A stretch of DNA of 51,533 bases from a virus. Lineage: Duplodnaviria; Heunggongvirae; Uroviricota; Caudoviricetes. Made by a program: the position numbers and the translations under genes. The DNA lies in IMG/VR virus record IMGVR_UViG_2711768018_000019. The stretch is one strand, 5' to 3'. Numbering within the stretch: the first letter of the stretch is position 1; each line of letters opens with the position of its first letter. Positions 29,701 through 48,933 of the stretch are shown piece by piece. The notes beneath the pieces were generated by a model. It was not told where the DNA came from. It searched no databases and was given only the letters and a program-made list of their open reading frames with translations.

Positions 29701-29737
29701 CCGTGATGGTGGTCGGTTAAGTGGAGCATATCGGTAA
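26672..29737 (+). CDS. H: Tail tape-measure protein H (copy 1, diverged from lambda)
   Basis: 1021 aa from the ATG at 26672 (RBS ggaggtg). The C-terminal region (NNDGTNGQIGPAALKVVYDLGKKAAADFMQQQARDGGRLSG) parallels the lambda gpH C-terminus. Confidence 0.85.
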   Translation: MDQIANLVIDLGIDAAEFKNEIPRIKNLLNGAASDAERSSARMQRFMERQTQAARQTTQAASSAATAASVHAQTVEKNAQAHERMSREVEKTRQRMEALSQKMREEQAQAMALAEAQDKAAAAFYRQIDSVKQASAGLQELQRIQQQIRQARNSGGIGQQDYLALISEVTAKTRVLTQAEEEATRQKVAFIRQLKEQATRQNLSSSELLRAKAAQLGVSSAAEVYIRKMEQAGKATHSLGLKSAAARQEIGVLIGELARGNLGALRGSGITLANRAGWIDTLMSPKGMMLGGVIGGIAAAVYGLGKAWYDGQKEGEEFNRQLSLTGHYAGVTAGQLWTLSRAISGNGITQHAAAGALAQVVGSGAFRGNDIGMVARAAAQMERSVGQSVSDTINQFKRLKDDPVNAAKALDNELHFLTATQLEQIRVLGEQGRSSDAARIAMSALAEETGRRTADIDNNLNALGSTLKYLSDLWSRFWDAAMNIGREDSLDEQISALQEKVSRAKRLPWTASSSQVEYDQQRLNELQEKKRQKDLQDAKEQAERNYQEQQKRRNAENAALNRMNETEAARHQREIARINSMQYADQAVRDAAIQRENERYEKALASGKKKTREPRNDEATRLLLQYSQQQAQVEGQIAAARQSAGIATERMTEAHKQLLALQQRISDLDGKKLTADEKSVLARKDELIQALTLLDVKQQELQKQTALNELKKKTIQLTSQLAEEERAQRQQHDLDIATVGMGDQQRQRYQVQLSLRQKYQQQLEQLRRDSEQKGTYNTDDYRKAEQALTESLNRQLNENRRYWQQLEVVQGNWKNGVLRAFQDFTVDADNTAGTAEQVFSSAFSNMGNGLATFVTTGKLNFKSFTSSVLSDMAKILAQATMMKSIKGIGSVLGFDLSSLSLNANGGIYQSADLSRYSGTVVNRPTFFAFAKGAGVMGEAGPEAILPLRRGADGKLGVVADIGGSGMAMFAPQYNIEINNDGTNGQIGPAALKVVYDLGKKAAADFMQQQARDGGRLSGAYR

Positions 29738-30066
29738 TGGAGACGTTTCACTGGAAAGTGCGCCCGGATATGAATGTGGTATCAGAGCCGAAAGTGGTGA
29801 CAGTGAAGCTGGGCGATGGTTATGAACAGCGTCGTGCGGCGGGACTGAATAACCAGTTGTCGACTTACAGCGTGACGATACGTGTTCGTAAATGTGAACA
29901 CCCATCTTTAAAAGCCTTTCTGGAACGGCACGGTGGCGTCCGCGCATTTCAGTGGACGCCACCTTATGACTGGAAGCCGATCAGGGTGGTTTGTCGTAAA
30001 TGGTCGGCAAGCGTGGGGGCGTTGTGGGTAACCATAACGGCAGATTTTGAACAGGTCGTGGCATAG
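29737..30066 (+). CDS. M: Minor tail protein M (copy 1)
   Basis: 109 aa, colinear with lambda gpM (…GDGYEQRRAAGLN…TYSVT…WTPPYDWKPIRVVCRKWS…FEQVVA). Confidence 0.9.
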   Translation: METFHWKVRPDMNVVSEPKVVTVKLGDGYEQRRAAGLNNQLSTYSVTIRVRKCEHPSLKAFLERHGGVRAFQWTPPYDWKPIRVVCRKWSASVGALWVTITADFEQVVA

Positions 30067-30075
30067 GAGTCTCTG

Positions 30076-30774
30076 ATGCAGGATATTCCACAGGAAACAC
30101 ATCATGAGACGACACGCCTCACTCAGTCAGCCCAGGTGGTGCTCTGGGAAATCGATCTGACAGAGGTCGGTGGAGAACGTTATTTTTTCTGTAATGAGCA
30201 GAACGAAAAAGGTGAGCCGGTCACCTGGCAGGGGCGACAGTATCAGGCGTATCCCATTCAGGGGACGGGATTTGAACTGAACGGCAAGGGCAGTGCTGCC
30301 CGTCCGACACTGACGGTTTCTAACCTGCACGGCATGGTCACCGGGATGGCGGAAGATCTGCAGAGTCTGGTCGGCGGAACGGTGGTCCGGCGTAAGGTTT
30401 ACGCCCGTTTTCTGGATGCGGTGAACTTCGTCAACGGAAACAGTGACGCCGATCCGGAGCAGGAGGTGATCAGCCGCTGGCGCATCGAGCAGTGCAGCGA
30501 ACTGAGCGCGGTGAGTGCCTCCTTTGTACTGTCCACGCCGACGGAAACGGATGGCGCTGTTTTTCCGGGGCGCATCATGCTGGCCAACACCTGCACCTGG
30601 ACCTATCGCGGCGATGAGTGCGGTTATCACGGTCCGGCGGTCGCGGATGAATATGATCAGCCGACGTCCGATATCACGAAGGATAAATGCAGCAAATGCC
30701 TGAGCGGCTGTAAGTTTCGCAATAACGTCGGCAACTTTGGCGGCTTCCTTTCCATTAACAAACTTTCGCAGTAA
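30076..30774 (+). CDS. L: Minor tail protein L (copy 1)
   Basis: 232 aa, near-identical to lambda gpL (VVLWEIDLTEVGGERYFFCNEQNEKGEPVTWQGRQYQ…). Confidence 0.9.
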   Translation: MQDIPQETHHETTRLTQSAQVVLWEIDLTEVGGERYFFCNEQNEKGEPVTWQGRQYQAYPIQGTGFELNGKGSAARPTLTVSNLHGMVTGMAEDLQSLVGGTVVRRKVYARFLDAVNFVNGNSDADPEQEVISRWRIEQCSELSAVSASFVLSTPTETDGAVFPGRIMLANTCTWTYRGDECGYHGPAVADEYDQPTSDITKDKCSKCLSGCKFRNNVGNFGGFLSINKLSQ

Positions 30775-30779
30775 ATCCC

Positions 30780-31523
30780 ATGACAGAGACAGAATCAGCG
30801 ATTCTGGCGCACGCCCGGCGATGTGCGCCAGCGGAGTCGTGCGGCTTCGTGGTGAGAACACCGGAGGGGGAAAGATATTTTCCCTGCGTGAATATCTCCG
30901 GTGAGCCGGAGGAGTATTTCCGGATGTCGCCGGAGGACTGGCTGCGGGCAGAGATGCAGGGTGAGATTGTGGCGCTGGTCCACAGCCACCCCGGTGGTCT
31001 GCCCTGGCTGAGTGAGGCCGACCGGCGGCTGCAGGTGCAGAGTGATTTGCCGTGGTGGCTGGTCTGCCGGGGGGCGATTCACAAGTTCCGCTGTGTGCCA
31101 CATCTTACCGGGCGGCGCTTTGAGCACGGGGTGACGGACTGTTACACGCTGTTCCGGGATGCTTACCATCTGGCGGGGATTGAGATGCCGGATTTTCATC
31201 GCGGGGATGACTGGTGGCGTCACGGTCAGAATCTCTATCTGGATAATCTGGAGGCTACAGGGCTGTATCAGGTGCCGTTGTCAGCGGCGCAGCCGGGCGA
31301 TGTGCTGCTGTGCTGTTTTGGTTCATCGGTGCCGAATCATGCCGCCATTTACTGTGGTGACGGCGAGCTGCTGCACCATATTCCTGAACAACTGAGCAAA
31401 CGAGAGAGGTATACCGACAAATGGCAGCGACGCACACACTCCCTCTGGCGTCACCGGGCATGGCACGCATCTGCCTTTACGGGGATTTACAACGATTTGG
31501 CCGCCGCATCGACCTTCGAGTGA
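30780..31523 (+). CDS. K: Tail tip assembly protein K (copy 1)
   Basis: MTETESAILAHARRCAPAESCGFVV ... HSHPGG (JAB/MPN-like) ... NlpC/P60-like C-terminus, as in lambda gpK. Confidence 0.9.
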   Translation: MTETESAILAHARRCAPAESCGFVVRTPEGERYFPCVNISGEPEEYFRMSPEDWLRAEMQGEIVALVHSHPGGLPWLSEADRRLQVQSDLPWWLVCRGAIHKFRCVPHLTGRRFEHGVTDCYTLFRDAYHLAGIEMPDFHRGDDWWRHGQNLYLDNLEATGLYQVPLSAAQPGDVLLCCFGSSVPNHAAIYCGDGELLHHIPEQLSKRERYTDKWQRRTHSLWRHRAWHASAFTGIYNDLAAASTFE

Positions 31524-32068
31524 AAACGGGGTCCGAAGCCATCCGGGCGCTGGCCATGCAGATCCCGGCGTTTCGTCAGAAACTGAATGAGGGCTGGTAT
31601 CAGGTGCGCATTGCCGGGCGTGATGCAGGCGAAAATGAATTATCTGCCCGTCTTAATGAGCCGCTGGCAAATGGTGCCGTGATCCACATCGTGCCGCGTC
31701 TGGCGGGAGCTAAAAGTGGCGGTGTGTTTCAGGTGGTGCTTGGGGCGGCGCTGATTGCGGTGGCATGGTGGAACCCTGTGGGCTGGCTGGGGGCCGCGGC
31801 TGTATCGGGCATGTATGCGGCAGGGGCCAGTATGATCCTGGGCGGAGTGGCGCAGATGCTGGCACCGAAAGCCAGGACGCCCACGGCAGCCAGTACAGAT
31901 AACGGCAAACAGAACACCTATTTCTCCTCACTGGATAACATGGTTGCCCAGGGCAATGTTCTGCCTGTTCTGTACGGTGAAATGCGCGTGGGGTCACGTG
32001 TGGTTTCTCAGGAGATCAGCACGGCAGACGAAGGGGATGGTGGTCAGGTTGTGGTGATTGGTCGCTGA
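31421..32068 (+). CDS. I: Tail assembly protein I (copy 1)
   Basis: MAATHTLPLASPGMARICLYGDLQRFGRRIDLRVKTG ... matches lambda gpI; overlaps the 3' end of K. Confidence 0.85.
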   Translation: MAATHTLPLASPGMARICLYGDLQRFGRRIDLRVKTGSEAIRALAMQIPAFRQKLNEGWYQVRIAGRDAGENELSARLNEPLANGAVIHIVPRLAGAKSGGVFQVVLGAALIAVAWWNPVGWLGAAAVSGMYAAGASMILGGVAQMLAPKARTPTAASTDNGKQNTYFSSLDNMVAQGNVLPVLYGEMRVGSRVVSQEISTADEGDGGQVVVIGR

Positions 32069-32128
32069 TGCAAAATGTTTTATGTGAAACCGCCTCCGGG
32101 CGGTTTTGTCGTTTATGGAGCGTGAGGA

Positions 32129-34124
32129 ATGGGTAAAGGCAGCAGTAAGGGGCATACCCCGCGCGAAGCAAAGGACAACCTGAAGTCCACGCAGTTGCTG
32201 AGTGTGATCGATACCATCAGCGAAGGGCCGGTTGAAGGTCCGGTGGATGGATTAAAAAGCGTGCTGCTGAACAGTACACCGGTGCTGGACAGTGAGGGGA
32301 ATACCAACATCTCTGGTGTCACGGTGGTGTTCCGGGCAGGTGAGCAGGAACAGACACCGCCGGAGGGATTTGAATCATCAGGTTCCGAGACGGTACTGGG
32401 TACGGAAGTGAAATACGACACGCCGATCACCCGGACCATCACGTCGGCAAACATTGACCGACTGCGTTTTACCTTCGGTGTACAGGCACTGGTGGAAACC
32501 ACCTCAAAGGGAGACAGGAATCCGTCTGAAGTTCGCCTGCTGGTTCAGATACAGCGTAACGGTGGCTGGGTGACGGAAAAAGACATCACCATTAAGGGCA
32601 AAACCACCTCGCAGTATCTGGCCTCGGTGGTGGTGGGTAACCTGCCGCCGCGCCCGTTCAATATACGGATGCGCAGGATGACGCCGGACAGCACCACAGA
32701 CCAGCTGCAGAACAAAACGCTCTGGTCGTCATACACCGAAATCATCGATGTGAAACAGTGCTACCCGAACACGGCACTGGTCGGCGTGCAGGTGGATTCG
32801 GAGCAGTTCGGCAGCCAGCAGGTGAGCCGTAATTATCATCTGCGCGGGCGCATTCTGCAGGTGCCGTCGAGCTATAACCCGCAGACGCGGCAATACAGCG
32901 GTATCTGGGACGGAACGTTTAAGCCAGCATACAGCAACAACATGGCCTGGTGTCTGTGGGATATGCTGACCCATCCGCGCTACGGCATGGGGAAACGTCT
33001 TGGTGCGGCGGATGTGGACAAATGGGCGCTGTATGTCATCGGCCAGCATTGCGATCAGTCGGTGCCGGACGGTTTTGGCGGCACGGAGCCGCGCATCACC
33101 TGTAATGCGTACCTGACCACACAGCGCAAGGCGTGGGATGTGCTCAGTGATTTCTGCTCGGCGATGCGCTGTATGCCGGTATGGAACGGGCAGACGCTGA
33201 CGTTCGTGCAGGACCGACCGTCGGATAAGGTGTGGACCTATAACCGCAGTAATGTGGTGATGCCGGATGATGGTGCGCCGTTCCGCTACAGCTTCAGCGC
33301 CCTGAAGGACCGCCATAATGCCGTTGAGGTGAACTGGATTGACCCGAATAACGGCTGGGAGACGGCGACAGAGCTTGTGGAGGACACGCAGGCCATTGCC
33401 CGTTACGGTCGTAACGTCACGAAGATGGATGCTTTTGGCTGTACCAGCCGGGGGCAGGCACACCGCGCCGGGCTGTGGCTGATTAAAACAGAACTGCTGG
33501 AAACGCAGACCGTGGACTTCAGCGTGGGTGCCGAAGGGCTTCGCCATGTACCGGGCGATGTCATTGAAATCTGCGATGATGACTATGCCGGTATCCGCAC
33601 CGGCGGGCGCGTGCTGGCGGTAAACAGCCAGACCCGGACGCTGACGCTCGACCGTGAAATCACGCTGCCATCTTCCGGCACCACGCTGATAAGCCTGGTT
33701 GACGGGCAGGGGAGTCCGGTCAGCGTGGAGGTTCAGTCCGTCACCGACGGCGTGAAGGTGAAAGTGAGCCGTGTTCCTGACGGCGTTGCTGAATACAGCG
33801 TATGGGGGCTGAAGCTGCCGACGCTGCGCCAGCGCCTGTTCCGCTGCGTGAGTATCCGTGAGAACGACGACGGCACGTATGCCATCACTGCCGTGCAGCA
33901 TGTACCGGAAAAAGAGGCCATCGTGGATAACGGGGCGCACTTTGACGGCGACCAGAGCGGCACGGTAAATGGTGTCACGCCGCCAGCGGTGCAGCACCTG
34001 ACCGCAGAAGTCACCGCAGACAGCGGGGAATACCAGGTGCTGGCCCGCTGGGACACGCCGAAGGTGGTGAAGGGCGTGAGCTTCCTGCTTCGCCTGACCG
34101 TGGCAGCGGATGACGGCCGTGAGC
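32129..34124 (+). CDS. J: Tail tip/host-specificity protein J (copy 1), 3' end lost in an assembly gap
   Basis: MGKGSSKGHTPREAKDNLKSTQLLSVIDTISEGPVEGPVDGLKSVLLNSTPVLDSEGNTNISGV ... matches lambda gpJ; the coding sequence runs into the N-run at 34125. Confidence 0.85.
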
Positions 34125-34374
34125 NNNNNNNNNNNNNNNNNNNNNNNNNNNNNNNNNNNNNNNNNNNNNNNNNNNNNNNNNNNNNNNNNNNNNNNNNNNN
34201 NNNNNNNNNNNNNNNNNNNNNNNNNNNNNNNNNNNNNNNNNNNNNNNNNNNNNNNNNNNNNNNNNNNNNNNNNNNNNNNNNNNNNNNNNNNNNNNNNNNN
34301 NNNNNNNNNNNNNNNNNNNNNNNNNNNNNNNNNNNNNNNNNNNNNNNNNNNNNNNNNNNNNNNNNNNNNNNNNN
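34125..34374. other. Assembly gap (250 N)
   Basis: Run of n characters in the sequence. Confidence 1.
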
Positions 34375-34375
34375 G

Positions 34376-35209
34376 AGCGATACCGAAGCGTCACGGCTGA
34401 AATATACCGAAGAGGCGCAGAAGGCTTACGAACGGCTGCAGACGCCGCTGGAGAAATATACCGCCCGTCAGGAAGAACTGAACAAGGCACTGAAAGACGG
34501 GAAAATCCTGCAGGCGGATTACAACACGCTGATGGCGGCGGCGAAAAAGGATTATGAAGCGACGCTGAAAAAGCCGAAACAGTCCGGCGTGAAGGTGTCT
34601 GCGGGCGATCGTCAGGAAGACAGTGCTCATGCTGCCCTGCTGACGCTTCAGGCAGAACTCCGGACGCTGGAGAAGCATGCCGGAGCGAATGAGAAAATCA
34701 GCCAGCAGCGCCGGGATTTGTGGAAGGCAGAAAGTCAGTTCGCGGTACTGGAGGAGGCGGCACAACGTCGCCAGCTGTCCGCACAGGAGAAATCCCTGCT
34801 GGCGCATAAAGACGAGACGCTGGAGTACAAACGCCAGCTGGCTGCACTTGGTGACAAGGTTACGTATCAGGAGCACCTGAATGCGCTGGCGCAGCAGGCG
34901 GATAAATTCGCACAGCAGCAACGGGCAAAACGGGCAGCCATTGATGCGAAAAACCGGGGGCTGACTGACCGGCAGGCAGCGCGGGAAGCCACGGAACAGC
35001 GTCTGAAGGAACAGTATGGCGATAATCCGCTGGCGCTGAATAACGTCATGTCAGAGCAGAAAAAGACCTGGGCGGCTGAAGACCAGCTTCGCGGGAGCTG
35101 GATGGCAGGCCTGAAGTCCGGCTGGAGTGAGTGGGAAGAGAGCGCCACGGACAGTATGTCACAGGTTAAAAGTGCAGCCACGCAGACCTTTGATGGTATT
35201 GCACAGAAT
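34376..35209 (+). CDS. H: Tape-measure protein H, internal fragment of a second lambda-like copy, bounded by gaps
   Basis: SDTEASRLKYTEEAQKAYERLQTPLEKYTARQEELNKALKDGKILQADYNTLMAAAKKDYE ... matches the middle of lambda gpH, sitting between two N-runs. Confidence 0.8.
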
Positions 35210-35514: not shown

Positions 35515-35811
35515 TTTGTCTTCACGAAGGAGGCAACCAGCCGGATTGGCGTGGGGAATCTCTACCGGCTGATGCGCGGCTATGCGGAAGGTGGTTATGT
35601 GGGCGGTGCCGGAAGTCCGGCGCAGATGCGGCGGGCTGAAGGCATTAATTTTAATCAGAACAATCACGTGGTGATTCAGAACGACGGTACGAATGGTCTG
35701 CCAGGTCCACAGATGATGAAGGCCGTGTATGACATGGCCCGCAAGGGTGCCCGTGATGAAATTCAGACACAGATGCGTGATGGTGGCCTGTTCTCCGGAG
35801 GTGGACGATGA
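35515..35811 (+). CDS. H: Tape-measure protein H, C-terminal fragment (copy 2)
   Basis: FVFTKEATSRIGVGNLYRLMRGYAEGGYVG ... IQTQMRDGGLFSGGGR matches the lambda gpH C-terminus; stop overlaps the ATG of M'. Confidence 0.8.
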   Translation, partial: FVFTKEATSRIGVGNLYRLMRGYAEGGYVGGAGSPAQMRRAEGINFNQNNHVVIQNDGTNGLPGPQMMKAVYDMARKGARDEIQTQMRDGGLFSGGGR

Positions 35812-36137
35812 AAACCTTCCGCTGGAAAGTGAAACCCGGTATGGATGTGGCTTCGGCCCCTTCTGTAAGAAAGGTGCGCTTTGGTGATGGCTATTCCCAG
35901 CGAGCGCCTGCCGGGCTGAATGCCAACCTGAAAACGTACAGCGTGACGCTTTCTGTCCCCCGTGAGGAGGCCATGGTACTGGAGTCGTTTCTGGAAGAGC
36001 ACGGGGGCTGGAAAGCCTTTCTGTGGACGCCGCCTTATGAGTGGCGGCAGATAAAGGTGACCTGCGCAAAATGGTCGTCGCGGGTCAGTATGCTGCGTGT
36101 TGAGTTCAGCGCAGAGTTTGAACAGGTGGTGAACTGA
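35808..36137 (+). CDS. M: Minor tail protein M (copy 2, lambda-type)
   Basis: MKTFRWKVKPGMDVAS ... FEQVVN; closer to lambda gpM than copy 1 is. Confidence 0.9.
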   Translation: MKTFRWKVKPGMDVASAPSVRKVRFGDGYSQRAPAGLNANLKTYSVTLSVPREEAMVLESFLEEHGGWKAFLWTPPYEWRQIKVTCAKWSSRVSMLRVEFSAEFEQVVN

Positions 36138-36835
36138 TGCAGGATATCCGGCAGGAAACACTGAATGAATGCACCCGTGCGGAGCAGTCGGCCAGCGTGG
36201 TGCTCTGGGAAATCGATCTGACAGAGGTCGGTGGAGAACGTTATTTTTTCTGTAATGAGCAGAACGAAAAAGGTGAGCCGGTCACCTGGCAGGGGCGACA
36301 GTATCAGCCGTATCCCATTCAGGGGAGTGGTTTTGAACTGAATGGCAAAGGCACCAGTACGCGCCCCACGCTGACGGTTTCTAACCTGTACGGTATGGTC
36401 ACCGGGATGGCGGAAGATATGCAGAGTCTGGTCGGCGGAACGGTGGTCCGGCGTAAGGTTTACGCCCGTTTTCTGGATGCGGTGAACTTCGTCAACGGAA
36501 ACAGTGACGCCGATCCGGAGCAGGAGGTGATCAGCCGCTGGCGCATTGAGCAGTGCAGCGAACTGAGCGCGGTGAGTGCCTCTTTTGTACTGTCCACGCC
36601 GACGGAAACAGATGGCGCTGTTTTTCCGGGACGTATCATGCTGGCCAACACCTGCACCTGGACCTATCGCGGCGATGAGTGCGGTTATCACGGTCCGGCG
36701 GTCGCGGATGAATATGACCAGCCAACGTCCGACATCACGAAGGATAAATGCAGCAAATGCCTGAGTGGCTGTAAGTTTCGCAATAACGTCGGCAACTTTG
36801 GCGGCTTCCTTTCCATTAACAAACTTTCGCAGTAA
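36137..36835 (+). CDS. L: Minor tail protein L (copy 2)
   Basis: Near-identical to copy 1 and to lambda gpL. Confidence 0.9.
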   Translation: MQDIRQETLNECTRAEQSASVVLWEIDLTEVGGERYFFCNEQNEKGEPVTWQGRQYQPYPIQGSGFELNGKGTSTRPTLTVSNLYGMVTGMAEDMQSLVGGTVVRRKVYARFLDAVNFVNGNSDADPEQEVISRWRIEQCSELSAVSASFVLSTPTETDGAVFPGRIMLANTCTWTYRGDECGYHGPAVADEYDQPTSDITKDKCSKCLSGCKFRNNVGNFGGFLSINKLSQ

Positions 36836-36840
36836 ATCCC

Positions 36841-37261
36841 ATGACAGAGACAGAATCAGCGATTCTGGCGCACGCCCGGCGATGTGCTCCAGCGGAGTCG
36901 TGCGGCTTCGTGGTAAGAACGCCGGAGGGGGAAAGATATTTCCCCTGCGTGAATATCTCCGGTGAGCCGGAGGCGTATTTCCGTATGTCGCCGGAAGACT
37001 GGCTGCAGGCAGAGATGCAGGGTGAGATTGTGGCACTGGTCCACAGCCACCCCGGTGGTCTGCCCTGGCTGAGTGAGGCCGACCGGCGGCTGCAGGTGCA
37101 GAGTGATTTGCCGTGGTGGCTGGTCTGCCGGGGGGCGATTCACAAGTTCCGCTGTGTGCCACATCTTACCGGGCGGCGCTTTGAGCACGGGGTGACGGAC
37201 TGTTACACGCTGTTCCGGGATGCTTACCATCTGGCGGGGATTGAGATGCCGGATTTTCATC
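36841..37261 (+). CDS. K: Tail protein K (copy 2), N-terminal part, truncated by a gap
   Basis: Identical in organisation to copy-1 K up to ...GIEMPDFH, then the N-run. Confidence 0.8.
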
Positions 37262-37498
37262 NNNNNNNNNNNNNNNNNNNNNNNNNNNNNNNNNNNNNNN
37301 NNNNNNNNNNNNNNNNNNNNNNNNNNNNNNNNNNNNNNNNNNNNNNNNNNNNNNNNNNNNNNNNNNNNNNNNNNNNNNNNNNNNNNNNNNNNNNNNNNNN
37401 NNNNNNNNNNNNNNNNNNNNNNNNNNNNNNNNNNNNNNNNNNNNNNNNNNNNNNNNNNNNNNNNNNNNNNNNNNNNNNNNNNNNNNNNNNNNNNNNNN
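37262..37498. other. Assembly gap (237 N), flanked by near-identical 114-bp segments
   Basis: Sequence 37148-37261 and 37499-37612 are the same K-gene segment with about 6 substitutions, i.e. overlapping contig ends from non-identical alleles. Confidence 1.
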
Positions 37499-38173
37499 TT
37501 CCGCTGTGTGCCGCATCTCACCGGGCGGCGCTTTGAGCACGGGGCGACGGACTGTTACACGCTGTTCCGGGATGCTTATCATCTGGCTGGGATTGAGATG
37601 CCGGATTTTCATCGCGGGGATGACTGGTGGCGTAACGGTCAGAATCTCTATCTGGATAATCTGGAGGCCACAGGGCTGTATCAGGTGCGTATTGCCGGGC
37701 AGGATGTTAGCACGTCCGGATTAACGGCACAGTTACATGAGGCTCTGCCTGACGGCGCTGTGATTCATATTGTTCCCAGAGTCGCCGGGGCCAAGTCAGG
37801 TGGTGTATTCCAGATTGTCCTGGGAGCAGCCGCCATTGCCGGATCATTCTTTACCGCCGGAGCCACCCTTGCAGCATGGGGGGCTGCCATTGGTGCCGGT
37901 GGTATGACCGGCATTCTGTTTTCTCTCGGTGCCAGTATGGTGCTCGGCGGTGTGGCTCAGATGCTGGCACCGAAAGCCAGAACTCCCCGCACACAGACAA
38001 CGGATAACGGTAAGCAGAACACCTATTTCTCCTCACTGGATAACATGGTTGCCCAGGGCAATGTTATGCCTGTTCTGTATGGTGAAATGCGCGTGGGGTC
38101 ACGTGTGGTATCTCAGGAGATCAGCACGGCAGACGAAGGGGACGGTGGTCAGGTTGTGGTGATTGGTCGCTGA
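37499..38173 (+). CDS. In-frame K-I hybrid ORF (K segment joined to lambda-type gpI at a shared YQV codon stretch)
   Basis: ...LEATGLYQV|RIAGQDVSTSGLTAQLHEALPDGAVIHIVPRVAGAKSGG...: the K C-terminus and I N-terminus are missing relative to copy 1. The I part matches lambda gpI more closely than copy 1 does. Confidence 0.6.
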   Translation, partial: FRCVPHLTGRRFEHGATDCYTLFRDAYHLAGIEMPDFHRGDDWWRNGQNLYLDNLEATGLYQVRIAGQDVSTSGLTAQLHEALPDGAVIHIVPRVAGAKSGGVFQIVLGAAAIAGSFFTAGATLAAWGAAIGAGGMTGILFSLGASMVLGGVAQMLAPKARTPRTQTTDNGKQNTYFSSLDNMVAQGNVMPVLYGEMRVGSRVVSQEISTADEGDGGQVVVIGR

Positions 38174-38233: not shown

Positions 38234-39593
38234 ATGGGTAAAGGCAGCAGTAAGGGGCATACCCCGCGCGAAGCGAAGGACAACCTGAAGTCCACGCAGC
38301 TGCTGAGTGTGATCGATGCCATCAGCGAAGGGCCGGTTGAAGGTCCGGTGGATGGATTAAAAAGCGTGCTGCTGAACAGTACGCCGGTGCTGGACAGTGA
38401 GGGGAATACCAACATCTCCGGCGTCACGGTGGTGTTCCGGGCAGGTGAGCAGGAGCAGTCACCGCCGGAGGGATTTGAATCCTCCGGCTCCGAGACGGTG
38501 CTGGGTACGGAAGTGAAATATGACACGCCGATCACCCGGACCATCACGTCGGCAAACATTGACCGACTGCGTTTTACCTTCGGTGTACAGGCACTGGTGG
38601 AAACCACCTCAAAGGGGGACAGGAATCCATCGGAAGTCCGCCTGCTGGTTCAGATACAGCGTAACGGTGGCTGGGTGACGGAAAAAGACATCACCATTAA
38701 GGGCAAAACCACCTCGCAGTATCTGGCCTCGGTGGTGGTGGATAACCTGCCGCCGCGCCCGTTTAATATCCGGATGCGCAGAATGACGCCGGACAGCACC
38801 ACAGACCAGCTGCAGAACAAAACGCTCTGGTCGTCATACACCGAAATCATCGATGTGAAACAGTGCTACCCGAACACGGCACTGGTCGGCGTACAGGTGG
38901 ATTCGGAGCAGTTCGGCAGCCAGCAGGTGAGCCGTAATTATCATCTTCGCGGGCGCATTCTGCAGGTGCCGTCGAACTATAATCCGCAGACGCGGCAATA
39001 CAGCGGTATCTGGGACGGAACGTTAAAACCGGCATACAGCAACAACATGGCCTGGTGTCTGTGGGATATGCTGACCCATCCGCGCTATGGCATGGGGAAA
39101 CGTCTTGGTGCGGCAGATGTGGATAAATGGGCGCTGTATGTCATCGGCCAGTACTGTGACCAGTCGGTGCCGGACGGCTTTGGCAGCACGGAGCCGCGCA
39201 TCACCTGTAATGCCTGGCTGACCACACAGCGCAAGGCGTGGGATGTGCTCAGTGATTTCTGCTCGGCGATGCGCTGTATGCCGGTATGGAACGGGCAGAC
39301 GCTGACGTTCGTGCAGGACCGACAGTCGGATAAGGTGTGGGCCTATAACCGCAGTAATGTGGTGATGCCGGATGATGGCGCGCCGTTCCGCTACAGTTTC
39401 AGCGCCCTGAAAGACCGCCATAATGCCGTTGAGGTGAACTGGATTGACCCGGATAACGGCTGGGAGACGGCGACAGAGCTTGTGGAGGATACGCAGGCCA
39501 TTGTCCGTTACGGTCGTAACGTCACGAAGATGGATGCCTTTGGCTGTACCAGCCGGGGGCAGGCACACCGCGCCGGGCTGTGGCTGATTAAAA
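38234..39593 (+). CDS. J: Tail protein J (copy 2), N-terminal part up to a gap
   Basis: Near-identical to copy-1 J and to lambda gpJ; interrupted by an N-run. Confidence 0.85.
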
Positions 39594-40396: not shown

Positions 40397-40398
40397 CC

Positions 40399-41673
40399 CC
40401 GGCAGCGCCGTCGCGGATTGAGCTGACGCCGGGCTATTTTCAGATAACCGCCACGCCGCATCTTGCGGTTTATGACCCGACGGTACAGTTTGAGTTCTGG
40501 TTCTCGGAAAAACGGATTGCGGATATCAGGCAGGTTGAAACCAGCGCGCGTTATCTTGGTACGGCACTGTACTGGATAGCCGCCAGTATCAATATCAAAC
40601 CGGGCCATGATTATTACTTTTATATCCGCAGTGTGAACACCGTCGGCAAATCAGCATTCGTGGAGGCTGTCGGTCGGGCGAGCGATGATGCGGAAGGTTA
40701 CCTGGATTTTTTCAAAGGCCAGATAACCGAATCCCATCTCGGCCAGGAGCTGCTGGAAAAAGTCGACCTGACGGAGGATAACGCCAGCAGACTGGAGGAG
40801 TTTTCGAAAGAGTGGAAGGACGCCAACGATAAGTGGAATGCCATGTGGGGCGTCAAAATTGAGCAGACCAAAGACGGCAAACATTATGTCGCGGGTATTG
40901 GCCTCAGCATGGAGGACACGGAGGAAGGCAAACTGAGCCAGTTTCTGGTTGCCGCTAACCGTATCGCGTTTATTGACCCGGCAAACGGGAATGAAACGCC
41001 GATGTTTGTGGCGCAGGGCAACCAGATATTCATGAATGACGTGTTCCTGAAACGCCTGACGGCTCCCACCATTACCAGCGGTGGAAATCCGCCGGCATTT
41101 TCCCTGACACCAGACGGAAAGCTGACCGCTAAAAATGCGGATATCAGCGGTAATGTGAATGCAAATTCAGGGACGCTCAACAATGTCACGATTAACCAGA
41201 ACTGTACGATTAAGGGCATGCTGGAGGCGACCCAGGTCAGAGGAGATTTCGTTAAAGCTGTATCAAAAGCCTTCCCGAAAAAAGTCGGTACGTGGGGTAA
41301 CACGGAAACACCAAACGGTACGGTTACAGTCACCATCAGCGATGATCATAACTTTGACCGCCAGATTATTATTCCGCCCATTATTTTTAACGGTATAGCG
41401 TATGACGATCCGGGGAGCGGAAATAACCCAGGAGGCACGCGATACACGGGTTATGGTTTTGAAGTTCGCAAAAACGGCGTATTAATCGCATCCAGAGAAA
41501 CTAAAGGGGCCATTCCCGGTAGTTACAGTGCAGTTATTGATATGCCGAGTGGCAGGGGAAGCGTCACTCTGGAGTTTAAGATTTTCCAGAAAGGCAATCA
41601 GGGGGCAGGCAATATCACCGACTGTACGGTGATTGTGACCAAAAAAGCCGCTTCCGGCATCAGTATTCGTTGA
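40399..41673 (+). CDS. J: Tail protein J (copy 2), C-terminal receptor-binding part
   Basis: [38 protein letters not shown] ... [10 protein letters not shown] matches the lambda gpJ C-terminus. Confidence 0.85.
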
Positions 41674-41743
41674 AATATTTATAACCCCAATAAAGGGCGT
41701 CAGGAATGACGCCTTTTTTATTGCAGAAAAGCGAGAGGTAATT

Positions 41744-42343
41744 ATGCGTAAAGTTTGTGCAGCAATTTTGTCCGCAGCCATTTGTCTGGCCGTATCCGGT
41801 GCGCCTGCATGGGCGTCTGAACATCAGTCCACGCTGAGCGCGGGGTATCTTCATGCCCGGACGAACGTTCCCGGCAGTGATGATCTGAACGGGATTAACG
41901 TGAAATACCGTTATGAGTTTACGGACACACTGGGGCTGGTGACGTCGTTCAGCTATGCAGGAGACAAGAATCGCCAGCTGACCCGTTACAGCGATACCCG
42001 CTGGTATGAAGATTCCGTGCGTAACCGCTGGTTCAGCGTGATGGCGGGGCCGTCTGTGCGCGTGAATGAATGGTTCAGCGCGTATGCGATGGCGGGTGTG
42101 GCTTACAGCCGTGTGTCGACTTTTTCCGGGGATTATATCCGCGTAACTGACAATAAGGGGAAAACGCACGATGTGCTGACCGGAAGTGATGACGGTCGCC
42201 ACAGCAACACGTCTCTGGCGTGGGGAGCTGGCGTGCAGTTTAACCCGACCGAATCCGTGGCCATTGATATTGCTTATGAAGGCTCCGGCAGTGGCGACTG
42301 GCGCACTGACGGTTTCATCGTGGGTGTCGGTTATAAATTCTGA
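41744..42343 (+). CDS. lom: Lom outer-membrane protein (Ail/Lom family)
   Basis: Signal peptide plus beta-barrel; the C-terminus IDIAYEGSGSGDWRTDGFIVGVGYKF is identical to the lambda Lom C-terminus as I recall it. Confidence 0.85.
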   Translation: MRKVCAAILSAAICLAVSGAPAWASEHQSTLSAGYLHARTNVPGSDDLNGINVKYRYEFTDTLGLVTSFSYAGDKNRQLTRYSDTRWYEDSVRNRWFSVMAGPSVRVNEWFSAYAMAGVAYSRVSTFSGDYIRVTDNKGKTHDVLTGSDDGRHSNTSLAWGAGVQFNPTESVAIDIAYEGSGSGDWRTDGFIVGVGYKF

Positions 42344-42369
42344 TTAGCCAGGTAACACAGTATTATGAC

Positions 42370-42397
42370 AGCCCGCCGGTTCAGGCGGGCTTTTTTG
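42370..42397 (+). terminator. Rho-independent terminator after lom
   Basis: gcccgccggttcaggcgggc followed by tttttt. Confidence 0.6.
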
Positions 42398-42407
42398 TGG
42401 GGTGAAT

Positions 42408-45400
42408 ATGGCAGTAAAGATTTCAGGTGTACTGAAAGACGGCACAGGAAAACCGGTACAGAACTGCACAATCCAGCTGAAAGCAAAACGTAACAGCACC
42501 ACGGTGGTGGTGAACACGCTGGCCTCAGAAAATCCGGATGAAGCCGGGCGTTACAGCATGGACGTTGAGTACGGGCAGTACAGCGTTATTCTGTTGGTGG
42601 AGGGATTCCCGCCGTCACATGCCGGGACCATCACCGTGTATGAAGATTCCCGACCCGGTACGCTGAATGATTTTCTCGGTGCCATGACGGAGGATGATGC
42701 CCGTCCTGAGGCACTGCGCCGCTTTGAACTGATGGTGGAAGAGGTGGCGCGTAACGCGTCCGCGGTGGCACAGAACACGGCAGCCGCGAAGAAATCAGCC
42801 AGCGATGCCAGCACATCAGCCCGTGAGGCGGCAACCCGTGCGACTGATGCTGCAGGCTCAGCACGAGCAGCCAGCACGTCAGCCGGACAGGCCGCTTCGT
42901 CGGCTCAGTCTGCGTCTTCCAGCGCAGGAACGGCATCAGCAAAGGCCACTGAAGCATCAAAAAGTGCTGCCGCTGCAGAGTCCTCAAAAAGCGCGGCGGC
43001 CACCAGTGCCGGTGCGGCGAAAACGTCAGAAACGAATGCGGCAGCGTCACAACAATCAGCTGCCACTTCTGCATCCACCGCGACCACGAAAGCGTCAGAA
43101 GCAGCCACCTCAGCCAGAGATGCGTCGGCTTCAAAAGAGGCGGCAAAATTATCAGAAACGAGCGCAGCTTCGAGCGCCAGTAATGCCGCTTCCTCGGCAA
43201 CGGCGGCAGGAAATTCCGCGAAGGCGGCAAAGACGTCTGAGACAAACGCTAAGTCCTCTGAAACGGCAGCAGCACAGAGTGCCTCCGCAGCAGCAGGCTC
43301 AAAAACAGCGGCTGCGTCGTCTGCCAGTGCAGCGTCAACAAGTGCCGGGCAGGCCTCAGCCAGTGCTAGCGCCGCCGGAAAATCGGCAGAAAGCGCCGCA
43401 TCGTCCGCTTCAACAGCCACAACGAAGGCTGGCGAAGCCACTGAACAGGCCAGTGCAGCAGCGAGGTCTGCTTCCGCAGCGAAGACATCGGAGACGAACG
43501 CGAAAGCGTCGGAGACCAGCGCAGAATCCTCAAAAACGGCTGCCGCATCGTCCGCCAGTTCGGCGGCGTCATCGGCATCATCGGCGTCTGCTTCAAAAGA
43601 TGAGGCGACCAGACAAGCGTCCGCAGCGAAGGGCAGCGCCACGACAGCATCCACGAAGGCGACAGAGGCTGCTGGCAGTGCGACGGCGGCAGCACAGAGC
43701 AAAAGTACGGCGGAATCCGCGGCAACGCGCGCCGAGACAGCGGCAAAACGTGCAGAGGATATTGCATCCGCCGTGGCGCTTGAGGATGCGAGCACGACGA
43801 AAAAGGGGATAGTACAGCTCAGTAGTGCGACTAATAGCACGTCTGAAACGCTGGCGGCAACGCCAAAGGCAGTAAAAGCAGCCAATGACAATGCTGAGAA
43901 ACGTCTGCAGAAAGACCAGAACGGCGCTGATATACCCGATAAGGGACGCTTCCTGAACAACATTAACGCGGTCAGTAAAACAGACTTTGCTGATAAGCGT
44001 GGTATGCGTTATGTGCGGGTTAACGCTCCTGCAGGTGCAACATCTGGAAAATATTACCCTGTTGTTGTTATGCGTTCTGCTGGCTCAGTAAGCGAACTGG
44101 CATCAAGGGTCATTATCACCACGGCAACGCGAATCGCAGGCGATCCGATGAATAACTGCGAGTTTAACGGATTTGTTATGCCTGGTGGCTGGACTGACAG
44201 GGGGCGTTATGCTTATGGAATGTTCTGGCAATATCAAAACAATGAACGAGCCATCCACTCAATAATGATGAGTAATAAGGGCGATGATTTGCGCTCTGTG
44301 TTCTATGTTGATGGCGCTGCTTTCCCTGTTTTTGCGTTTCTCGAAGATGGCCTGTCAATATCCGCACCTGGTGCTGATCTCGTTGTTAATGATACGACCT
44401 ATAAGTTTGGGGCAACAAATCCGGCGACTGAATGTATCGCGGCGGACGTTATCCTTGATTTTAAGAGTGGGCGTGGTTTTTATGAGTCTCATTCGTTAAT
44501 CGTTAACGATAACTTGTCGTGCAAAAAACTTTTTGCCACAGACGAAATTGTAGCGCGTGGTGGTAATCAGATTCGAATGATAGGTGGGGAGTATGGTGCA
44601 TTATGGCGTAATGATGGCGCTAAAACTTACCTGCTGCTTACCAATCAAGGTGATGTTTATGGTGGCTGGAATACATTAAGACCGTTTGTTATTGATAACG
44701 CAACCGGCGAACTGGTTATTGGAACCAAACTGTCTGCAAGTCTGAACGGTAACGCATTGACAGCAACAAAGCTGCAAACGCCAAGACTGGTTTCTGGTGT
44801 TGAGTTTGATGGTTCCAAAGATATTACTTTAACCGCCGCGCATGTGGCTGCTTTTGCCAGAAGGGCAACGGATACATATGCCGATGCGGATGGTGGCGTT
44901 CCATGGAATGCCGAATCAGGCGCTTACAATGTCACCCGCTCTGGCAACAGCTATATTCTGGTTAACTTCTATACCGGAGTCGGAAGTTGCCGGACCTTGC
45001 AGATGAAGGCGCATTACAGAAATGGTGGTCTGTTCTACCGTTCTTCAAGAGACGGTTATGGTTTTGAGGAAGACTGGGCAGAAGTTTATACCTCGAAAAA
45101 TCTTCCACCAGAAAGCTACCCAGTCGGTGCACCAATCCCGTGGCCATCAGATACCGTTCCGTCTGGTTATGCCCTGATGCAGGGACAGACTTTTGACAAA
45201 TCTGCTTACCCGAAACTTGCAGCCGTTTATCCGTCAGGTGTGATCCCTGATATGCGTGGCTGGACGATTAAGGGCAAACCTGCCAGTGGTCGGGCCGTAT
45301 TGTCTCAGGAACAGGACGGCATTAAATCGCATACCCACAGCGCCAGCGCATCCAGTACGGATTTGGGGACGAAAACCACATCGTCGTTTGATTACGGCAC

Positions 45401-45806
45401 TAAATCCACGAATAACACTGGTGCGCATACCCATAGTTTAAGTGGCAGCACGAATGCAGCTGGTAATCACAGCCATAGAGATGGCCGTCGATTTAACCCC
45501 AGTGTTTTTAAAGATACTTATCAATATGGTTATACAAGCTCAGGTCAAAATACCTGGGGTGTACAAGGCTCAGTAGGTATGTCTACGGGGTGGTTAGCGA
45601 ATACCAGTACAGATGGTAATCATAGCCACTCACTGTCCGGCACAGCAGCATCTGCAGGTGCACACGCGCATACTGTCGGTATTGGTGCTCATACGCACTC
45701 CGTTGCGATTGGTTCACATGGACATACCATCACCGTTAACGCTGCGGGTAACGCGGAAAACACCGTCAAAAACATCGCATTTAACTATATTGTGAGGCTT
45801 GCATAA
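42408..45806 (+). CDS. stf: Side tail fibre protein Stf
   Basis: About 1130 aa. [79 protein letters not shown] matches K-12 StfR-type fibres as I recall them; long Ala/Ser/Thr repeat region; C-terminal His-rich repeats (GAHTHS, GNHSHS). Confidence 0.85.
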
Positions 45807-46390
45807 TGGCATTCAGAATGAGTGAACAACCACGGACCATAAAAATTTATAATCTGCTGACCGGAACTAATGAATTTATTGGTGAAGGTGACGCATATAT
45901 TCCGCCTCATACAGGTCTGCCAGCAAACAGTACCTATATTGCACCGCCAGATATTCCGGCTGGCTTTGTGGCTGTTTTCAACAGTGATGAGGCATCGTGG
46001 CATCTCGTTGAAGACCATCGGGGTAAAACGGTTTATGACGTAGCGTCAGGGGACGCGTTATTTATTTCTGAACTCGGTCCGTTACCGGAAAATGTTACCT
46101 GGTTATCCCCGGAAGGGGAGTTTCAGAAGTGGAACGGCACAGCCTGGGTGAAGGATACGGAAGCAGAAAAACTGTTCCGGATCCGGGAGGCGGAAGAAAC
46201 AAAAAACAGCCTGATGCAGGTAGCCAGTGAGCATATAGCGCCACTTCAGGATGCTGTAGATCTGGAGATCGCAACGGAGGAAGAAAACTCGTTGCTGGAA
46301 GCCTGGAAGAAGTATCGGGTGTTGCTGAACCGTGTTGATACATCAACTGCACCTGATATTGAGTGGCCTGCGGTCCCTGTTATGGAGTAA
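45806..46390 (+). CDS. tfa: Tail fibre assembly protein Tfa
   Basis: 194 aa directly after stf; the N-terminal [58 protein letters not shown] is characteristic of the Tfa family. Confidence 0.8.
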
Positions 46391-46502
46391 TCGTTTTGTG
46401 ATATGCCGCAGCAACTTGTCATGGCAGGATACTGCGGCTGATTTGTGAATTTAAATAGTGTGTTTATTGCTTTATATATAAAGGATTTAATGGATTACAT
46501 AT

Positions 46503-47873: not shown

Positions 47874-48402
47874 AGTCAATCCAAAGATATATTAATGGGA
47901 GTATATAAAGTGCGGCAGTAATAAATATTCGAAGTAATATCCATAAAATAACAATTATTTTTTCTTTTTGTGTGGGGATCCTCGTCTTAAGTCCAACTTG
48001 AGTTACCCTTGAAATTTTATCATCTATGTCACGGTGATTCTCAACCTCATTGAGCAAATTAAAATATTTTTCTTTCTGTTCAAGAGATAACTGTTGACTG
48101 GTGGTAATGTCAAAATAGAGTCGCTGTAGTGCAATATAATTCCTTCTCATGGCTATTGCTCGACCACGAAAATCTAGGTTAGATACGATCAGAGAAATAC
48201 CCAGTAGAGCCACTGAAAGTATCGCCGCAACGACATCTGTATTATCTCCTAGAACCTTTGGAAATCGCAACGTTACAATTGAAAGTACCGCACTCAATAT
48301 AGCATACCAAACGAGGATAAATTGAGAGTGTTTTTCAAGCCATTCTAGTCGATGGTGCGCTTGGATACGTGCTTTATATGTAAACCAAATATTGTCATGC
48401 AT
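47851..48402 (-). CDS. Small multi-TM membrane protein (SLATT-like candidate effector) co-transcribed with the RT
   Basis: 183 aa, RBS aagga. Two adjacent TM helices (FILVWYAILSAVLSIVTL; VVAAILSVALLGISLIVS) and a third at the C-terminus (IIVILWILLRIFITAALYILPLIYLW). Its 3' end overlaps the RT start by about 23 nt. Confidence 0.6.
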   Translation of the reverse strand: MHDNIWFTYKARIQAHHRLEWLEKHSQFILVWYAILSAVLSIVTLRFPKVLGDNTDVVAAILSVALLGISLIVSNLDFRGRAIAMRRNYIALQRLYFDITTSQQLSLEQKEKYFNLLNEVENHRDIDDKISRVTQVGLKTRIPTQKEKIIVILWILLRIFITAALYILPLIYLWIDYDCKQNF

Positions 48403-48624
48403 AAAAGATCCTTTTTAAAAGCGGAAGGGGCAGGATATATTGGAACCGTTGAACATCCTGCCCGGCAGGATCAGTGAGCATAAGCTCAACAGTAAAATAT
48501 TACTGTTCATTATCAGAGCCGCCCTTGCATGCGCAAGAGGAAAAACCTGCCCCATCCCTTTGAATTATTACAATTTAATGATCTTAAAGTCAATACAAGT
48601 GAATGGTGTCCAGAGATGATGAAC
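48403..48624 (-). ncRNA. Candidate structured ncRNA (retron msr/msd-like or DRT-type) upstream of the membrane-protein/RT operon
   Basis: On the minus strand: promoter-like -35 TTGACT (48593..48588) and -10 TAATAA (48570..48565), then inverted repeats GGATGGGGCAGG (48557..48546) and CCTGCCCCTTCC (48434..48423), 11/12 complementary, enclosing three hairpins. No ORF. Confidence 0.35.
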
Positions 48625-48931: not shown

Positions 48932-48933
48932 TG

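What the first reader, a model, noticed from the sequence alone, without database searches (positions are those of the whole stretch)
37141..37700. Gap flanked by overlapping, non-identical copies of the same K segment, followed by an in-frame K-I hybrid
Seen in sequence: 37148-37261 and 37499-37612 are the same 114-bp stretch of gene K with about 6 substitutions, which looks like unmerged contig ends from two alleles. Downstream, the K frame runs straight into gpI at the shared codons for YQV, deleting the K C-terminus and I N-terminus. The tatcaggtgc microhomology is present in both K and I of copy 1. This is either an assembly collapse or a real microhomology-mediated deletion.
Basis: seen in the sequence. 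Interest (0 to 1): 0.4.

Follow-up and report, generated by a model that had tools for sequence, protein, structure and literature searches.

The report
Chimeric scaffold gap in prophage tail genes
The gap with overlapping flanks and the K-I "hybrid gene" come from a short-read draft assembly that stitched pieces of several near-identical lambda-like prophages into one scaffold, so this is most likely an assembly artefact and not biology.

Summary
37147-37261 and 37499-37613 are the same 115 nt of gene K with 5 substitutions. 190 nt after the gap, K runs in frame into I at an 11-nt shared word (GTATCAGGTGC), with 332 nt missing.

The window is scaffold CWWD01000004.1 (GCA_001255455.1). Five N-runs split it into six contigs. 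Contigs A and F are a dusA-integrated prophage (P1); in a complete genome and a gap-free sister assembly they lie 143 nt apart. The 6.3 kb between them (B-E) belongs to a second lambda-like prophage (P2), interleaved by scaffolding. "Copy 2" is therefore not a duplication.

Nine other assemblies carry this P2 with intact K (247 aa) and I. Contig C matches P2 (3/1747 mismatches). D matches P2 from the 11-mer rightwards (0/939). D's K fragment does not (8/179, p=9e-7). The hybrid therefore joins K of a further prophage copy to P2's I.

The scaffold also keeps the spacing of the intact arrangement (417 vs 397 nt). The junction occurs in none of 5,426 complete E. coli genomes or the other collections scanned.

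Most likely (about 0.7) it is a false in-silico join. A private real deletion in a third prophage copy (about 0.2) needs reads to exclude.

The parts
1..34124 (+). Contig A: dusA-integrated lambdoid prophage P1, from the early region through H-M-L-K-I and about 2 kb of J. Holds intact K (30780-31523) and I (31421-32068).
   Evidence: Colinear with complete genome CDF6 at 99.73% with no gaps and with the gap-free sister scaffold L006. Pfam finds Prok-JAB + NLPC_P60 in K and Lambda_tail_I in I.
31265..31275 (+). GTATCAGGTGC in K of P1 (codons for YQV).
31597..31607 (+). GTATCAGGTGC in I of P1, 332 nt downstream of the K copy.
34125..34374 (.). N-run (250) at a false join: J of P1 is followed by the middle of the tape-measure gene of another prophage.
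34375..35209 (+). Contig B: middle of the lambda-type tape-measure gene H of the second prophage P2. It is not part of J.
   Evidence: Translation. Tape_meas_lam_C match. 99.3% identity to P2 in sister assemblies.
35515..37261 (+). Contig C: P2 H 3' end (to 35808), M (35808-36137), L (36137-36835) and K codons 1-140 (36841-37261).
   Evidence: 3 mismatches in 1747 nt to P2 in L023/L024/L026/L027/L031, none of them in K. It ends at K position 421; P1 and P2 first differ again at position 423.
37147..37261 (+). Left copy of the 115-nt overlap. This is the P2 allele of K, identical here to the P1 allele.
37262..37498 (.). Scaffold gap (237 N). It is also present in the public record.
37499..37677 (+). 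K fragment (codons 103-162) of a further K allele (PX). It is neither P1, P2 nor P3. Its first 115 nt are the right copy of the overlap.
   Evidence: 8/179 mismatches to P2. Over the 190 nt that include the 11-mer: 7 mismatches to P1, 11 to P3, and 3 to the closest allele, a VN2017-type K.
37678..37688 (+). Junction: the 11-nt word shared by K and I.
37689..38173 (+). gpI of P2 from codon 63 to the stop.
   Evidence: 0 mismatches to P2 of the sister assemblies over the first 939 nt counted from 37678. Lambda_tail_I profile positions 45-83 only.
38234..39593 (+). J 5' part of P2 (rest of contig D).
39916..40353 (+). Contig E: middle of J of P2. It overlaps the end of contig A at 94.9% identity.
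   Evidence: 100% identical to P2 of eight sister assemblies. Overlap with A.
40397..51533 (+). Contig F: J 3' end, lom, stf, tfa, DRT defence genes, integrase and dusA of P1 plus its chromosomal flank.
   Evidence: Colinear with CDF6 and L006, starting 143 nt after the end of A.

Best explanation
The window is a scaffold of a fragmented short-read draft assembly of an E. coli strain that carries several lambda-like prophages with 92-100% identical tail genes. Contigs break wherever two prophages are identical for longer than a read or k-mer. The scaffolder then strung four small contigs of a second prophage (P2: H-M-L-K...I-J) into a 143-nt hole in gene J of the dusA prophage (P1).

The gap at 37262-37498 separates contig C, which is true P2 sequence and ends where P1 and P2 start to differ, from contig D. 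D is itself a chimera. Its first 179 nt are a K fragment from yet another prophage copy (PX). From the 11-nt word GTATCAGGTGC onward it is P2's I and J.

The true P2 has 396 nt of K 3' end and I 5' end between contig C and that word. The scaffold reserves 416 positions for this stretch: 237 N plus the 179 nt of foreign K. The read-pair spacing therefore matches the intact arrangement.

Shown: the contig origins, the chimerism of D, the intact K and I of P2 elsewhere, and the preserved spacing.

Inferred: the K-to-I join was made in silico. A small orphan K contig would have been placed next to the I-J contig and the gap 'closed' on a 10- or 11-nt terminal overlap, as GapFiller's default rule allows. 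The overlapping flanks then result from two different K copies lying on either side of a gap that cannot be merged.
For: Source and contig structure:
- The source record is CWWD01000004.1, with identical N-runs.
- A and F are colinear with complete genome CDF6 and with the gap-free sister L006, with only 143 nt between them.
- B and the start of C are lambda-type tape-measure sequence, so the apparent 1147-aa J ORF is a read-through of N-runs.
- M and H of 'copy 2' have no DNA similarity to copy 1.

P2 elsewhere, and the chimerism of D:
- Nine other assemblies, including a gap-free 4.86-Mb contig, carry P2 with K 247 aa and I 186-223 aa (190 aa in most).
- Mismatches to that P2: C 3/1747; D from 37678 on 0/939 (4/1916 overall); E 0/438; D's K part 8/179. 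Fisher p = 9e-7.
- The K allele in D differs from P1, P2 and P3.

Spacing and gap sizes:
- From the end of C to the 11-mer is 417 nt in the scaffold and 397 nt in P2. It would be 65 nt if the deletion were real and the flanks were merged.
- For 13 other gaps, the N-run minus the true gap is within 45 nt in 9 cases. Single-N gaps hide 134 and 297 missing nt of tail genes in sister scaffolds, so the same assembly series produces false 'deletions' of this size.
- Sister scaffolds of the same locus each show a different interleaving of prophage pieces.

The junction elsewhere:
- It is absent as one piece from 5,426 complete E. coli genomes (7,581 matching places for the 126-nt junction query), from 50,697 phage records, from GTDB representative genomes, from IMG/VR and from JGI metagenomes.
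- The called 191-aa product is on record only in this scaffold.

Software behaviour (the pipeline for this record is inferred, not shown):
- GapFiller closes gaps on overlaps of at least 10 nt (PMC3446322).
- The Velvet+SSPACE+GapFiller pipeline paper warns of false joins (PMC5320598).
Against: - The junction lies inside a contig, and 11 nt is far too short for a k-mer or overlap assembler to join by itself.
- A false closure needs both contig ends to sit exactly on the 11-mer. By de Bruijn logic, the P2-specific I contig should start about 100-160 nt further upstream.
- I could not show that this record was made with SSPACE/GapFiller. The ENA-style accession series, the single-N gaps and the estimated gap sizes only suggest it.
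- An 11-nt direct repeat 332 nt apart is also the classic substrate of real slipped-strand deletion.
- Other K-I fusions in public data are seen by two independent assemblers (P0028 and P0060 have both NCBI and Logan sources).
- No reads were available.
Confidence: 0.7

Rival explanations
1. Real deletion in a third prophage copy. The strain carries a further lambdoid prophage or remnant (PX) whose K allele is the one seen at 37499-37677 and whose I-J region is identical to P2's. In PX, slipped-strand (RecA-independent) deletion between the two GTATCAGGTGC words removed 332 bp and fused K codon 165 in frame to I codon 63, inactivating both genes. The assembler correctly built the PX junction, collapsed the identical I-J of PX and P2 into contig D, and the scaffolder placed it after P2's contig C.
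For: - The junction is inside a contig, at the longest exact direct repeat of the K-I region.
- This reading explains without coincidence why contig D carries no I sequence upstream of the 11-mer: the graph would branch exactly there.
- PX is identical to P2 over the last 54 nt before the junction.
- Real K-I and other I fusions exist in public data with support from two assemblers (P0028, P0060, P0047).
- The spacing argument is also satisfied, because C-to-D read pairs would come from P2.
Against: - This junction is seen in none of 7,581 matching places in 5,426 complete genomes, nor in any other collection, although the longest microhomology should be the preferred site for real deletions.
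- The exact product is absent from all sister assemblies.
- It requires an otherwise unseen prophage copy that is 4.5% diverged from P2 in K but 100% identical over at least 939 nt of I-J.
Confidence: 0.22
2. Real deletion in the same prophage as the flanking contigs. C and D are adjacent in P2 of this strain, the 115-nt overlap is just an unmerged end, and P2 has lost 332 bp.
For: This is the simplest reading of the scaffold order. C and D map colinearly to lambda-like prophages.
Against: - The overlap differs at 5 of 115 positions. C carries the P2 allele and D does not: 8/179 mismatches to the left of the junction against 0/939 to the right.
- C ends exactly where P1 and the sister-type P2 diverge, which implies that sister-type P2 K reads continue past that point.
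- A true overlap of 115 nt would give a single N or a merge, not 237 N. That would be an error of +352 nt, larger than any of 13 calibrated gaps.
Confidence: 0.03
3. The 6.3-kb insert (B-E) is a real heterologous quasi-duplication of the tail module inside the dusA prophage of this strain, produced by recombination with a second phage.
For: The scaffolder must have had some read pairs linking A to B. The left junction is hidden in the 250-N gap and cannot be inspected.
Against: - Complete genomes and a gap-free sister scaffold join A to F directly.
- P2 sits on its own roughly 25-kb scaffold, with its own head genes, in other assemblies.
- Sister scaffolds insert different prophage pieces at or near the same point (L007, L009, L030, L031).
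- H and M of the insert are unrelated at DNA level to those of P1, so it cannot be a duplication.
Confidence: 0.04
4. The N-run hides real sequence one-for-one (masking), so the locus holds a 352-bp tandem duplication within K.
For: The two copies of the 115-nt segment start 352 nt apart.
Against: - The same N-runs are in the public record.
- N-run lengths deviate from true gap sizes by a few to tens of nt, as expected for estimates.
- No related genome has such a duplication.
Confidence: 0.01

Closest known systems
Repeat-induced mis-scaffolding and false gap closure in short-read bacterial assemblies (de Bruijn contigs, then SSPACE-type scaffolding, then GapFiller-type gap closing)
   Same: - N-runs of estimated length, and single-N gaps in sister scaffolds.
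- Small contigs of paralogous prophages chained in series.
- Contig ends that sit next to the sites where the prophage copies differ.
- A join on an overlap just above GapFiller's 10-nt default.
- Total scaffold length preserved across the region.
   Different: I could not show which software built this record. A 10- or 11-nt closure needs both ends exactly on the shared word, which is a rare event.
Bacteriophage lambda tail-tip assembly genes K (Prok-JAB + NlpC/P60) and I (Lambda_tail_I)
   Same: The intact genes of P1 (30780-31523 and 31421-32068) and of P2 in sister assemblies have the lambda order L-K-I-J, the lambda domain content, and K/I overlapping in different frames.
   Different: The 'hybrid' keeps only NlpC/P60 residues 111-165. 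It retains Cys121 but loses the stretch holding His187 and His199/200. It keeps only profile positions 45-83 of the I domain. It would not be a functional K or I.
RecA-independent microhomology-mediated (slipped-strand) deletion during prophage decay
   Same: An 11-bp direct repeat 332 bp apart, with one repeat copy retained at the junction.
   Different: The two sides of the junction belong to different prophage alleles. The junction is not recurrent in any other genome. Read support is unknown.

Membership tests
Lambda gpK-type tail protein (Prok-JAB + NlpC/P60) | Both the PF14464 and PF00877 domains are present in one protein of about 245 aa, encoded between L and I. | tested here: not met
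   P1 K has both domains. Contig C holds only the JAB half (140 codons). Contig D's ORF gives no NLPC_P60 hit, and only K residues 103-165 remain.
Lambda gpI-type tail assembly protein (PF06805) | Full Lambda_tail_I domain (profile positions 1-83) at the N-terminus. | tested here: not met
   The hybrid matches profile positions 45-83 only (37.7 bits). P1 I matches positions 2-83 (82.2 bits).
Real microhomology-mediated deletion allele | Sequence on both sides of the junction derives from the same parental locus. | tested here: not met
   8/179 mismatches to P2 on the K side against 0/939 on the I side (p = 9e-7). The K side also differs from P1 and P3. This could still be met if an unseen third locus has both halves.
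Real microhomology-mediated deletion allele | The junction is supported by independent molecules: reads, another assembler, or related isolates. | tested here: inconclusive
   No other record holds the junction or its product.
Scaffolding / gap-closing artefact | Flanking contigs map to different genomic loci in related finished genomes. | tested here: met
   A and F are adjacent in CDF6 and L006. B-E map to a separate lambda-like prophage with its own head genes.
Scaffolding / gap-closing artefact | Scaffold spacing agrees with the intact arrangement rather than the 'deleted' one. | tested here: met
   417 nt in the scaffold, 397 nt in P2, 65 nt if deleted and merged. Calibration on 13 other gaps is.
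Scaffolding / gap-closing artefact | The assembly was produced by software that merges on overlaps of 11 nt or less. | not testable with these tools
   GapFiller's default is 10 nt (PMC3446322), and the pipeline is described in PMC5320598. No paper naming this record was found.
Tandem duplication of the tail module | The two copies are homologous along their whole length. | tested here: not met
   H and M of 'copy 2' have no BLASTN match to copy 1. L, K, I and J are 91-96% identical.

The most novel reading that the evidence does not exclude
The junction is real. A third, otherwise uncharacterised lambdoid prophage remnant in this isolate underwent a private 332-bp slipped-strand deletion at the longest microhomology of the K-I region, creating an in-frame JAB/partial-NlpC-P60::gpI fusion ORF of about 326 codons.
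Probability: 0.2. Interest if true: 0.12.

Novelty: not a real feature. Interest (0 to 1): 0.06.

Why it matters
It matters mainly as a caution. In short-read drafts of E. coli with several lambdoid prophages, scaffolds can interleave contigs of different prophages. The results look like tandem gene duplications, giant ORFs that read through N-runs, and clean in-frame 'fusion genes'. Public protein databases already hold a range of singleton K-I fusions, internal I duplications and terminase-I chimeras. Some of these may be the same kind of artefact. Even if the deletion were real, it would be an ordinary inactivating deletion in a decaying prophage.

Tried and rejected
- I first inferred that the last 226 nt of contig C, which are identical to P1, were a chimeric extension built from P1 reads. 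This was rejected: P2 in five sister assemblies has exactly this sequence.
- I tried to infer the assembler's k-mer size from the distances between contig ends and the nearest distinguishing SNPs (k = 31, 41, 47 and 55 each fitted one end). This was rejected as numerology: contig E's left end lies inside P2-unique sequence.
- I used N-run length as a precise ruler. Calibration shows 4 of 13 gaps off by 130-296 nt, so the spacing argument is supportive only.
- I looked for the junction peptide in the 5.8-billion-protein collection, twice. No hit was found. However, the window's own 191-aa product is hidden inside a 5,268-member cluster of normal I proteins, so this negative result is weak.
- Looking up the L protein of P2 to find sister assemblies returned only unrelated long contigs, because the protein is too widespread.
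- A literature search for the record's accession numbers found nothing.
- The first lookup of the stf protein, from its GTG start, failed. The ATG two codons downstream worked.

Full report
**What is in the sequence**

The window has five N-runs: 34125-34374, 35210-35514, 37262-37498, 39594-39915 and 40354-40396. These split it into six contigs:
- A: 1-34124
- B: 34375-35209
- C: 35515-37261
- D: 37499-39593
- E: 39916-40353
- F: 40397-51533

The flanks of the third gap overlap. 37147-37261 and 37499-37613 are the same 115 nt of gene K with 5 substitutions, E = 3e-47.

In contig D the K frame runs to TAT CAG GTG (YQV, 37679-37687) and continues as gpI to the stop at 38173. Relative to intact loci, 332 nt are missing: K codons 166-247 and I codons 1-62.

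The junction is the 11-nt word GTATCAGGTGC (37678-37688). In copy 1 it occurs in K at 31265-31275 and in I at 31597-31607. It is the longest exact direct repeat in the K-I region; only 2-3 repeats of 10 nt or more exist there.

K and I are in different frames (offset 2) and 332 mod 3 = 2. The fusion is therefore in frame simply because the shared word encodes YQV in both genes.

**Where the window comes from**

An exact-protein lookup identifies the window as NCBI GCA_001255455.1, scaffold CWWD01000004.1 (76,094 nt). That record has the same five N-runs, so the Ns are part of the public record and not a mask.

The window is a lambdoid prophage integrated at dusA.

**'Copy 2' is not a duplication**

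Contig A is colinear with the complete genome of strain CDF6 at 99.73% with no indel. Contig F is colinear too, and in CDF6 only 143 nt separate the end of A from the start of F. The gap-free sister scaffold UDRL01000005.1 (L006) shows the same arrangement. The 6.27 kb between A and F is therefore extra.

Contig B translates as the middle of a lambda-type tape-measure protein, and contig C begins with the tape-measure C-terminus. The 1147-codon 'J' ORF at 32129-35572 is thus a read-through of two N-runs into unrelated sequence.

H and M of the insert have no BLASTN similarity to those of copy 1, while L, K, I and J are 91-96% identical. B-C-D-E map colinearly onto about 5.9 kb of lambda-like prophages in thousands of complete genomes, where K and I are separate and intact.

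The insert is therefore a piece of a second prophage (P2) that the scaffolder threaded into the J gap of the dusA prophage (P1).

Sister scaffolds from the same accession series show other interleavings at or near the same place:
- L007 carries a foreign J3'-lom-stf-tfa segment.
- L009 carries a second lom-stf.
- L030 and L031 carry two tail modules in series.

These sister scaffolds also contain single-N gaps.

**The decisive comparison**

The 86-codon partial tape-measure ORF at the start of contig C is also called in nine other assemblies. Eight are scaffolds of the same series; the ninth is a gap-free 4.86-Mb contig (L023). There P2 sits with its own head genes and has K of 247 aa and I of 186-223 aa (190 aa in most).

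Against these P2 copies:
- Contig C has 3 mismatches in 1747 nt, none in K and none in its last 226 nt.
- Contig E is 100% identical.
- Contig D from the 11-mer rightwards has 0 mismatches in the first 939 nt (4 in 1916; 0 against L028).
- The 179 nt of K to the left of the 11-mer have 8 mismatches (Fisher p = 9e-7).

Over the 190 nt that include the 11-mer, that K fragment also differs from P1 (7 mismatches) and from the third tail module seen in close relatives (P3, 11 mismatches). Its nearest relatives are K alleles of unrelated strains, with 3-4 mismatches.

Contig D is therefore a chimera of a further K allele (PX) and P2's I-J. The five substitutions in the overlap are differences between the K genes of P2 and PX.

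**Geometry**

In P2, 396 nt lie between the last base of C and the 11-mer in I. The scaffold has 416 positions there (237 N plus 179 nt), an excess of 20. The other gaps of the window overshoot by 35, 22 and 4 nt. If C and D were neighbours in a deleted prophage, the true gap would be -115 and the estimate would be wrong by +352.

The calibration is not tight. Among 13 other gaps, nine are within 45 nt and four are off by -296, +130, +139 and -133.

The same calibration shows that this assembly series produces false 'deletions' of tail-gene sequence. A single N stands for 297 missing nt of gene L in L004 and for 134 nt in L009. Of 17 gaps examined, only this one has overlapping flanks.

The right ends of contigs C and D both stop one base short of the last base shared by P1 and P2 before their next difference. 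This is the behaviour expected from graph branching or from greedy extension among paralogous copies.

**Is the K-I junction real?**

It is absent, as one piece, from all the collections scanned:
- 5,426 complete E. coli genomes. The only 24 with at least 80% coverage align in two pieces 332 nt apart (one search gives the same picture for a longer query).
- 50,697 phage records.
- GTDB representative genomes, IMG/VR and JGI metagenomes.

The called 191-aa product exists only in this scaffold.

Two readings remain.

(a) In-silico join. A small orphan contig of PX's K was placed beside P2's I-J contig, and the gap was closed on the 11-nt terminal match.
- GapFiller's default accepts overlaps of 10 nt or more, provided the size fits the estimate within 50 nt (PMC3446322).
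- The description of the Velvet+SSPACE+GapFiller pipeline itself warns of false joins (PMC5320598).
- Weakness: both ends must sit exactly on the word, I-gene sequence upstream of the word must be absent from the right-hand contig, and I could not prove which software was used.

(b) Real deletion. A real 332-bp slipped-strand deletion occurred in a third prophage copy whose I-J is identical to P2's.
- This explains the contig structure without coincidence.
- Real I fusions do exist in public data (P0028, P0060 and P0047 have both NCBI and Logan sources).
- It requires an unseen prophage that is 4.5% diverged from P2 in K yet identical over at least 939 nt.
- It requires a deletion at the best microhomology that has never been seen among 7,581 matching places in finished genomes, and its absence from all sister assemblies.

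I put (a) at about 0.7 and (b) at about 0.2. A deletion in P2 itself is contradicted by the allele pattern.

**Function**

Either way the ORF would not be a working K or I. It retains the JAB domain only if it is joined to contig C, which is a different allele. It keeps NlpC/P60 residues 111-165 without the histidine-bearing part, and only the last half of the Lambda_tail_I domain.

**Comparison with the known, and verdict**

The genes are ordinary lambda-type K and I. The anomaly belongs to the known class of repeat-induced scaffolding and gap-closing errors in multi-prophage E. coli drafts.

The protein database holds many similar singletons: K-I fusions with other junctions, internal I duplications, and terminase-I and methylase-I chimeras. 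This region is evidently a frequent source of such products, whether artefactual or real.

Novelty: not a real feature (most likely), or at best an ordinary private deletion in a prophage remnant. Interest is low.

Noticed in passing
window 32129-35572: The 1147-codon 'J' ORF of copy 1 is an artefact. It reads through two N-runs into the middle of a lambda-type tape-measure gene (34375-35209, in a different frame from that gene) and ends by chance in the tape-measure 3' end at 35572.
   Followed up: yes
window 46503-48402 (- strand): A defence-associated reverse transcriptase (RT_UG17, E = 1e-158) plus an RT-associated SLATT protein (E = 1.5e-56). They sit as a cargo pair between the tail-fibre assembly gene and DinI/integrase at the dusA end of the prophage. 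The pair is also present in CDF6 and in all sister scaffolds.
   Followed up: partly
L004 4157; L009 9731 (sister scaffolds CWVQ01000005.1, CWVG01000002.1): Single-N gaps hide 297 nt of gene L and 134 nt of lom respectively. There is no microhomology at the one of these joins that could be examined (L009). These are false deletions flagged only by one N.
   Followed up: yes
L007, L009, L030, L031 (sister scaffolds): Each scaffold chains tail-gene contigs of two or three different prophages in series, in a different order. Examples are J3'-lom-stf-tfa twice, lom-stf twice, and two H-M-L-K modules. All these assemblies are very fragmented, with largest scaffolds of about 70-90 kb.
   Followed up: partly
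proteins P0001, P0002, P0007, P0010, P0024, P0026, P0028, P0044, P0046, P0047, P0060, P0061: Public collections hold many, mostly singleton, abnormal gpI proteins: K-I fusions at various junctions, internal tandem duplications of I, and terminase-I and methylase-I chimeras. P0028, P0047 and P0060 are reported by both NCBI and Logan assemblies, so some may be real prophage-decay products.
   Followed up: partly
window 37036-37261 vs 30975-31200; K positions 196-422 and 478-709: P1 and P2 are exactly identical over two blocks of K/I (227 and 232 nt), flanked by 4-5% divergence. This is a recombination mosaic between co-resident prophages, and it explains where the contigs break.
   Followed up: yes
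window 40399-41216: The start of contig F (middle of J) is only 93.6% identical to CDF6 but 96.6% identical to a lambda-like prophage of STEC005. From about 40994 on it is 98.8% identical to CDF6. This is either a local mosaic or another mixed consensus in the J gene.
   Followed up: no
window 50117-50223 vs L001 (reverse complement) 93-199: An 83%-identical 107-nt repeat of the dusA 5' region lies at the far end of the prophage in CDF6, where it is annotated as a partial tRNA-dihydrouridine synthase. This is the attL/attR duplication typical of dusA-specific integrases.
   Followed up: no
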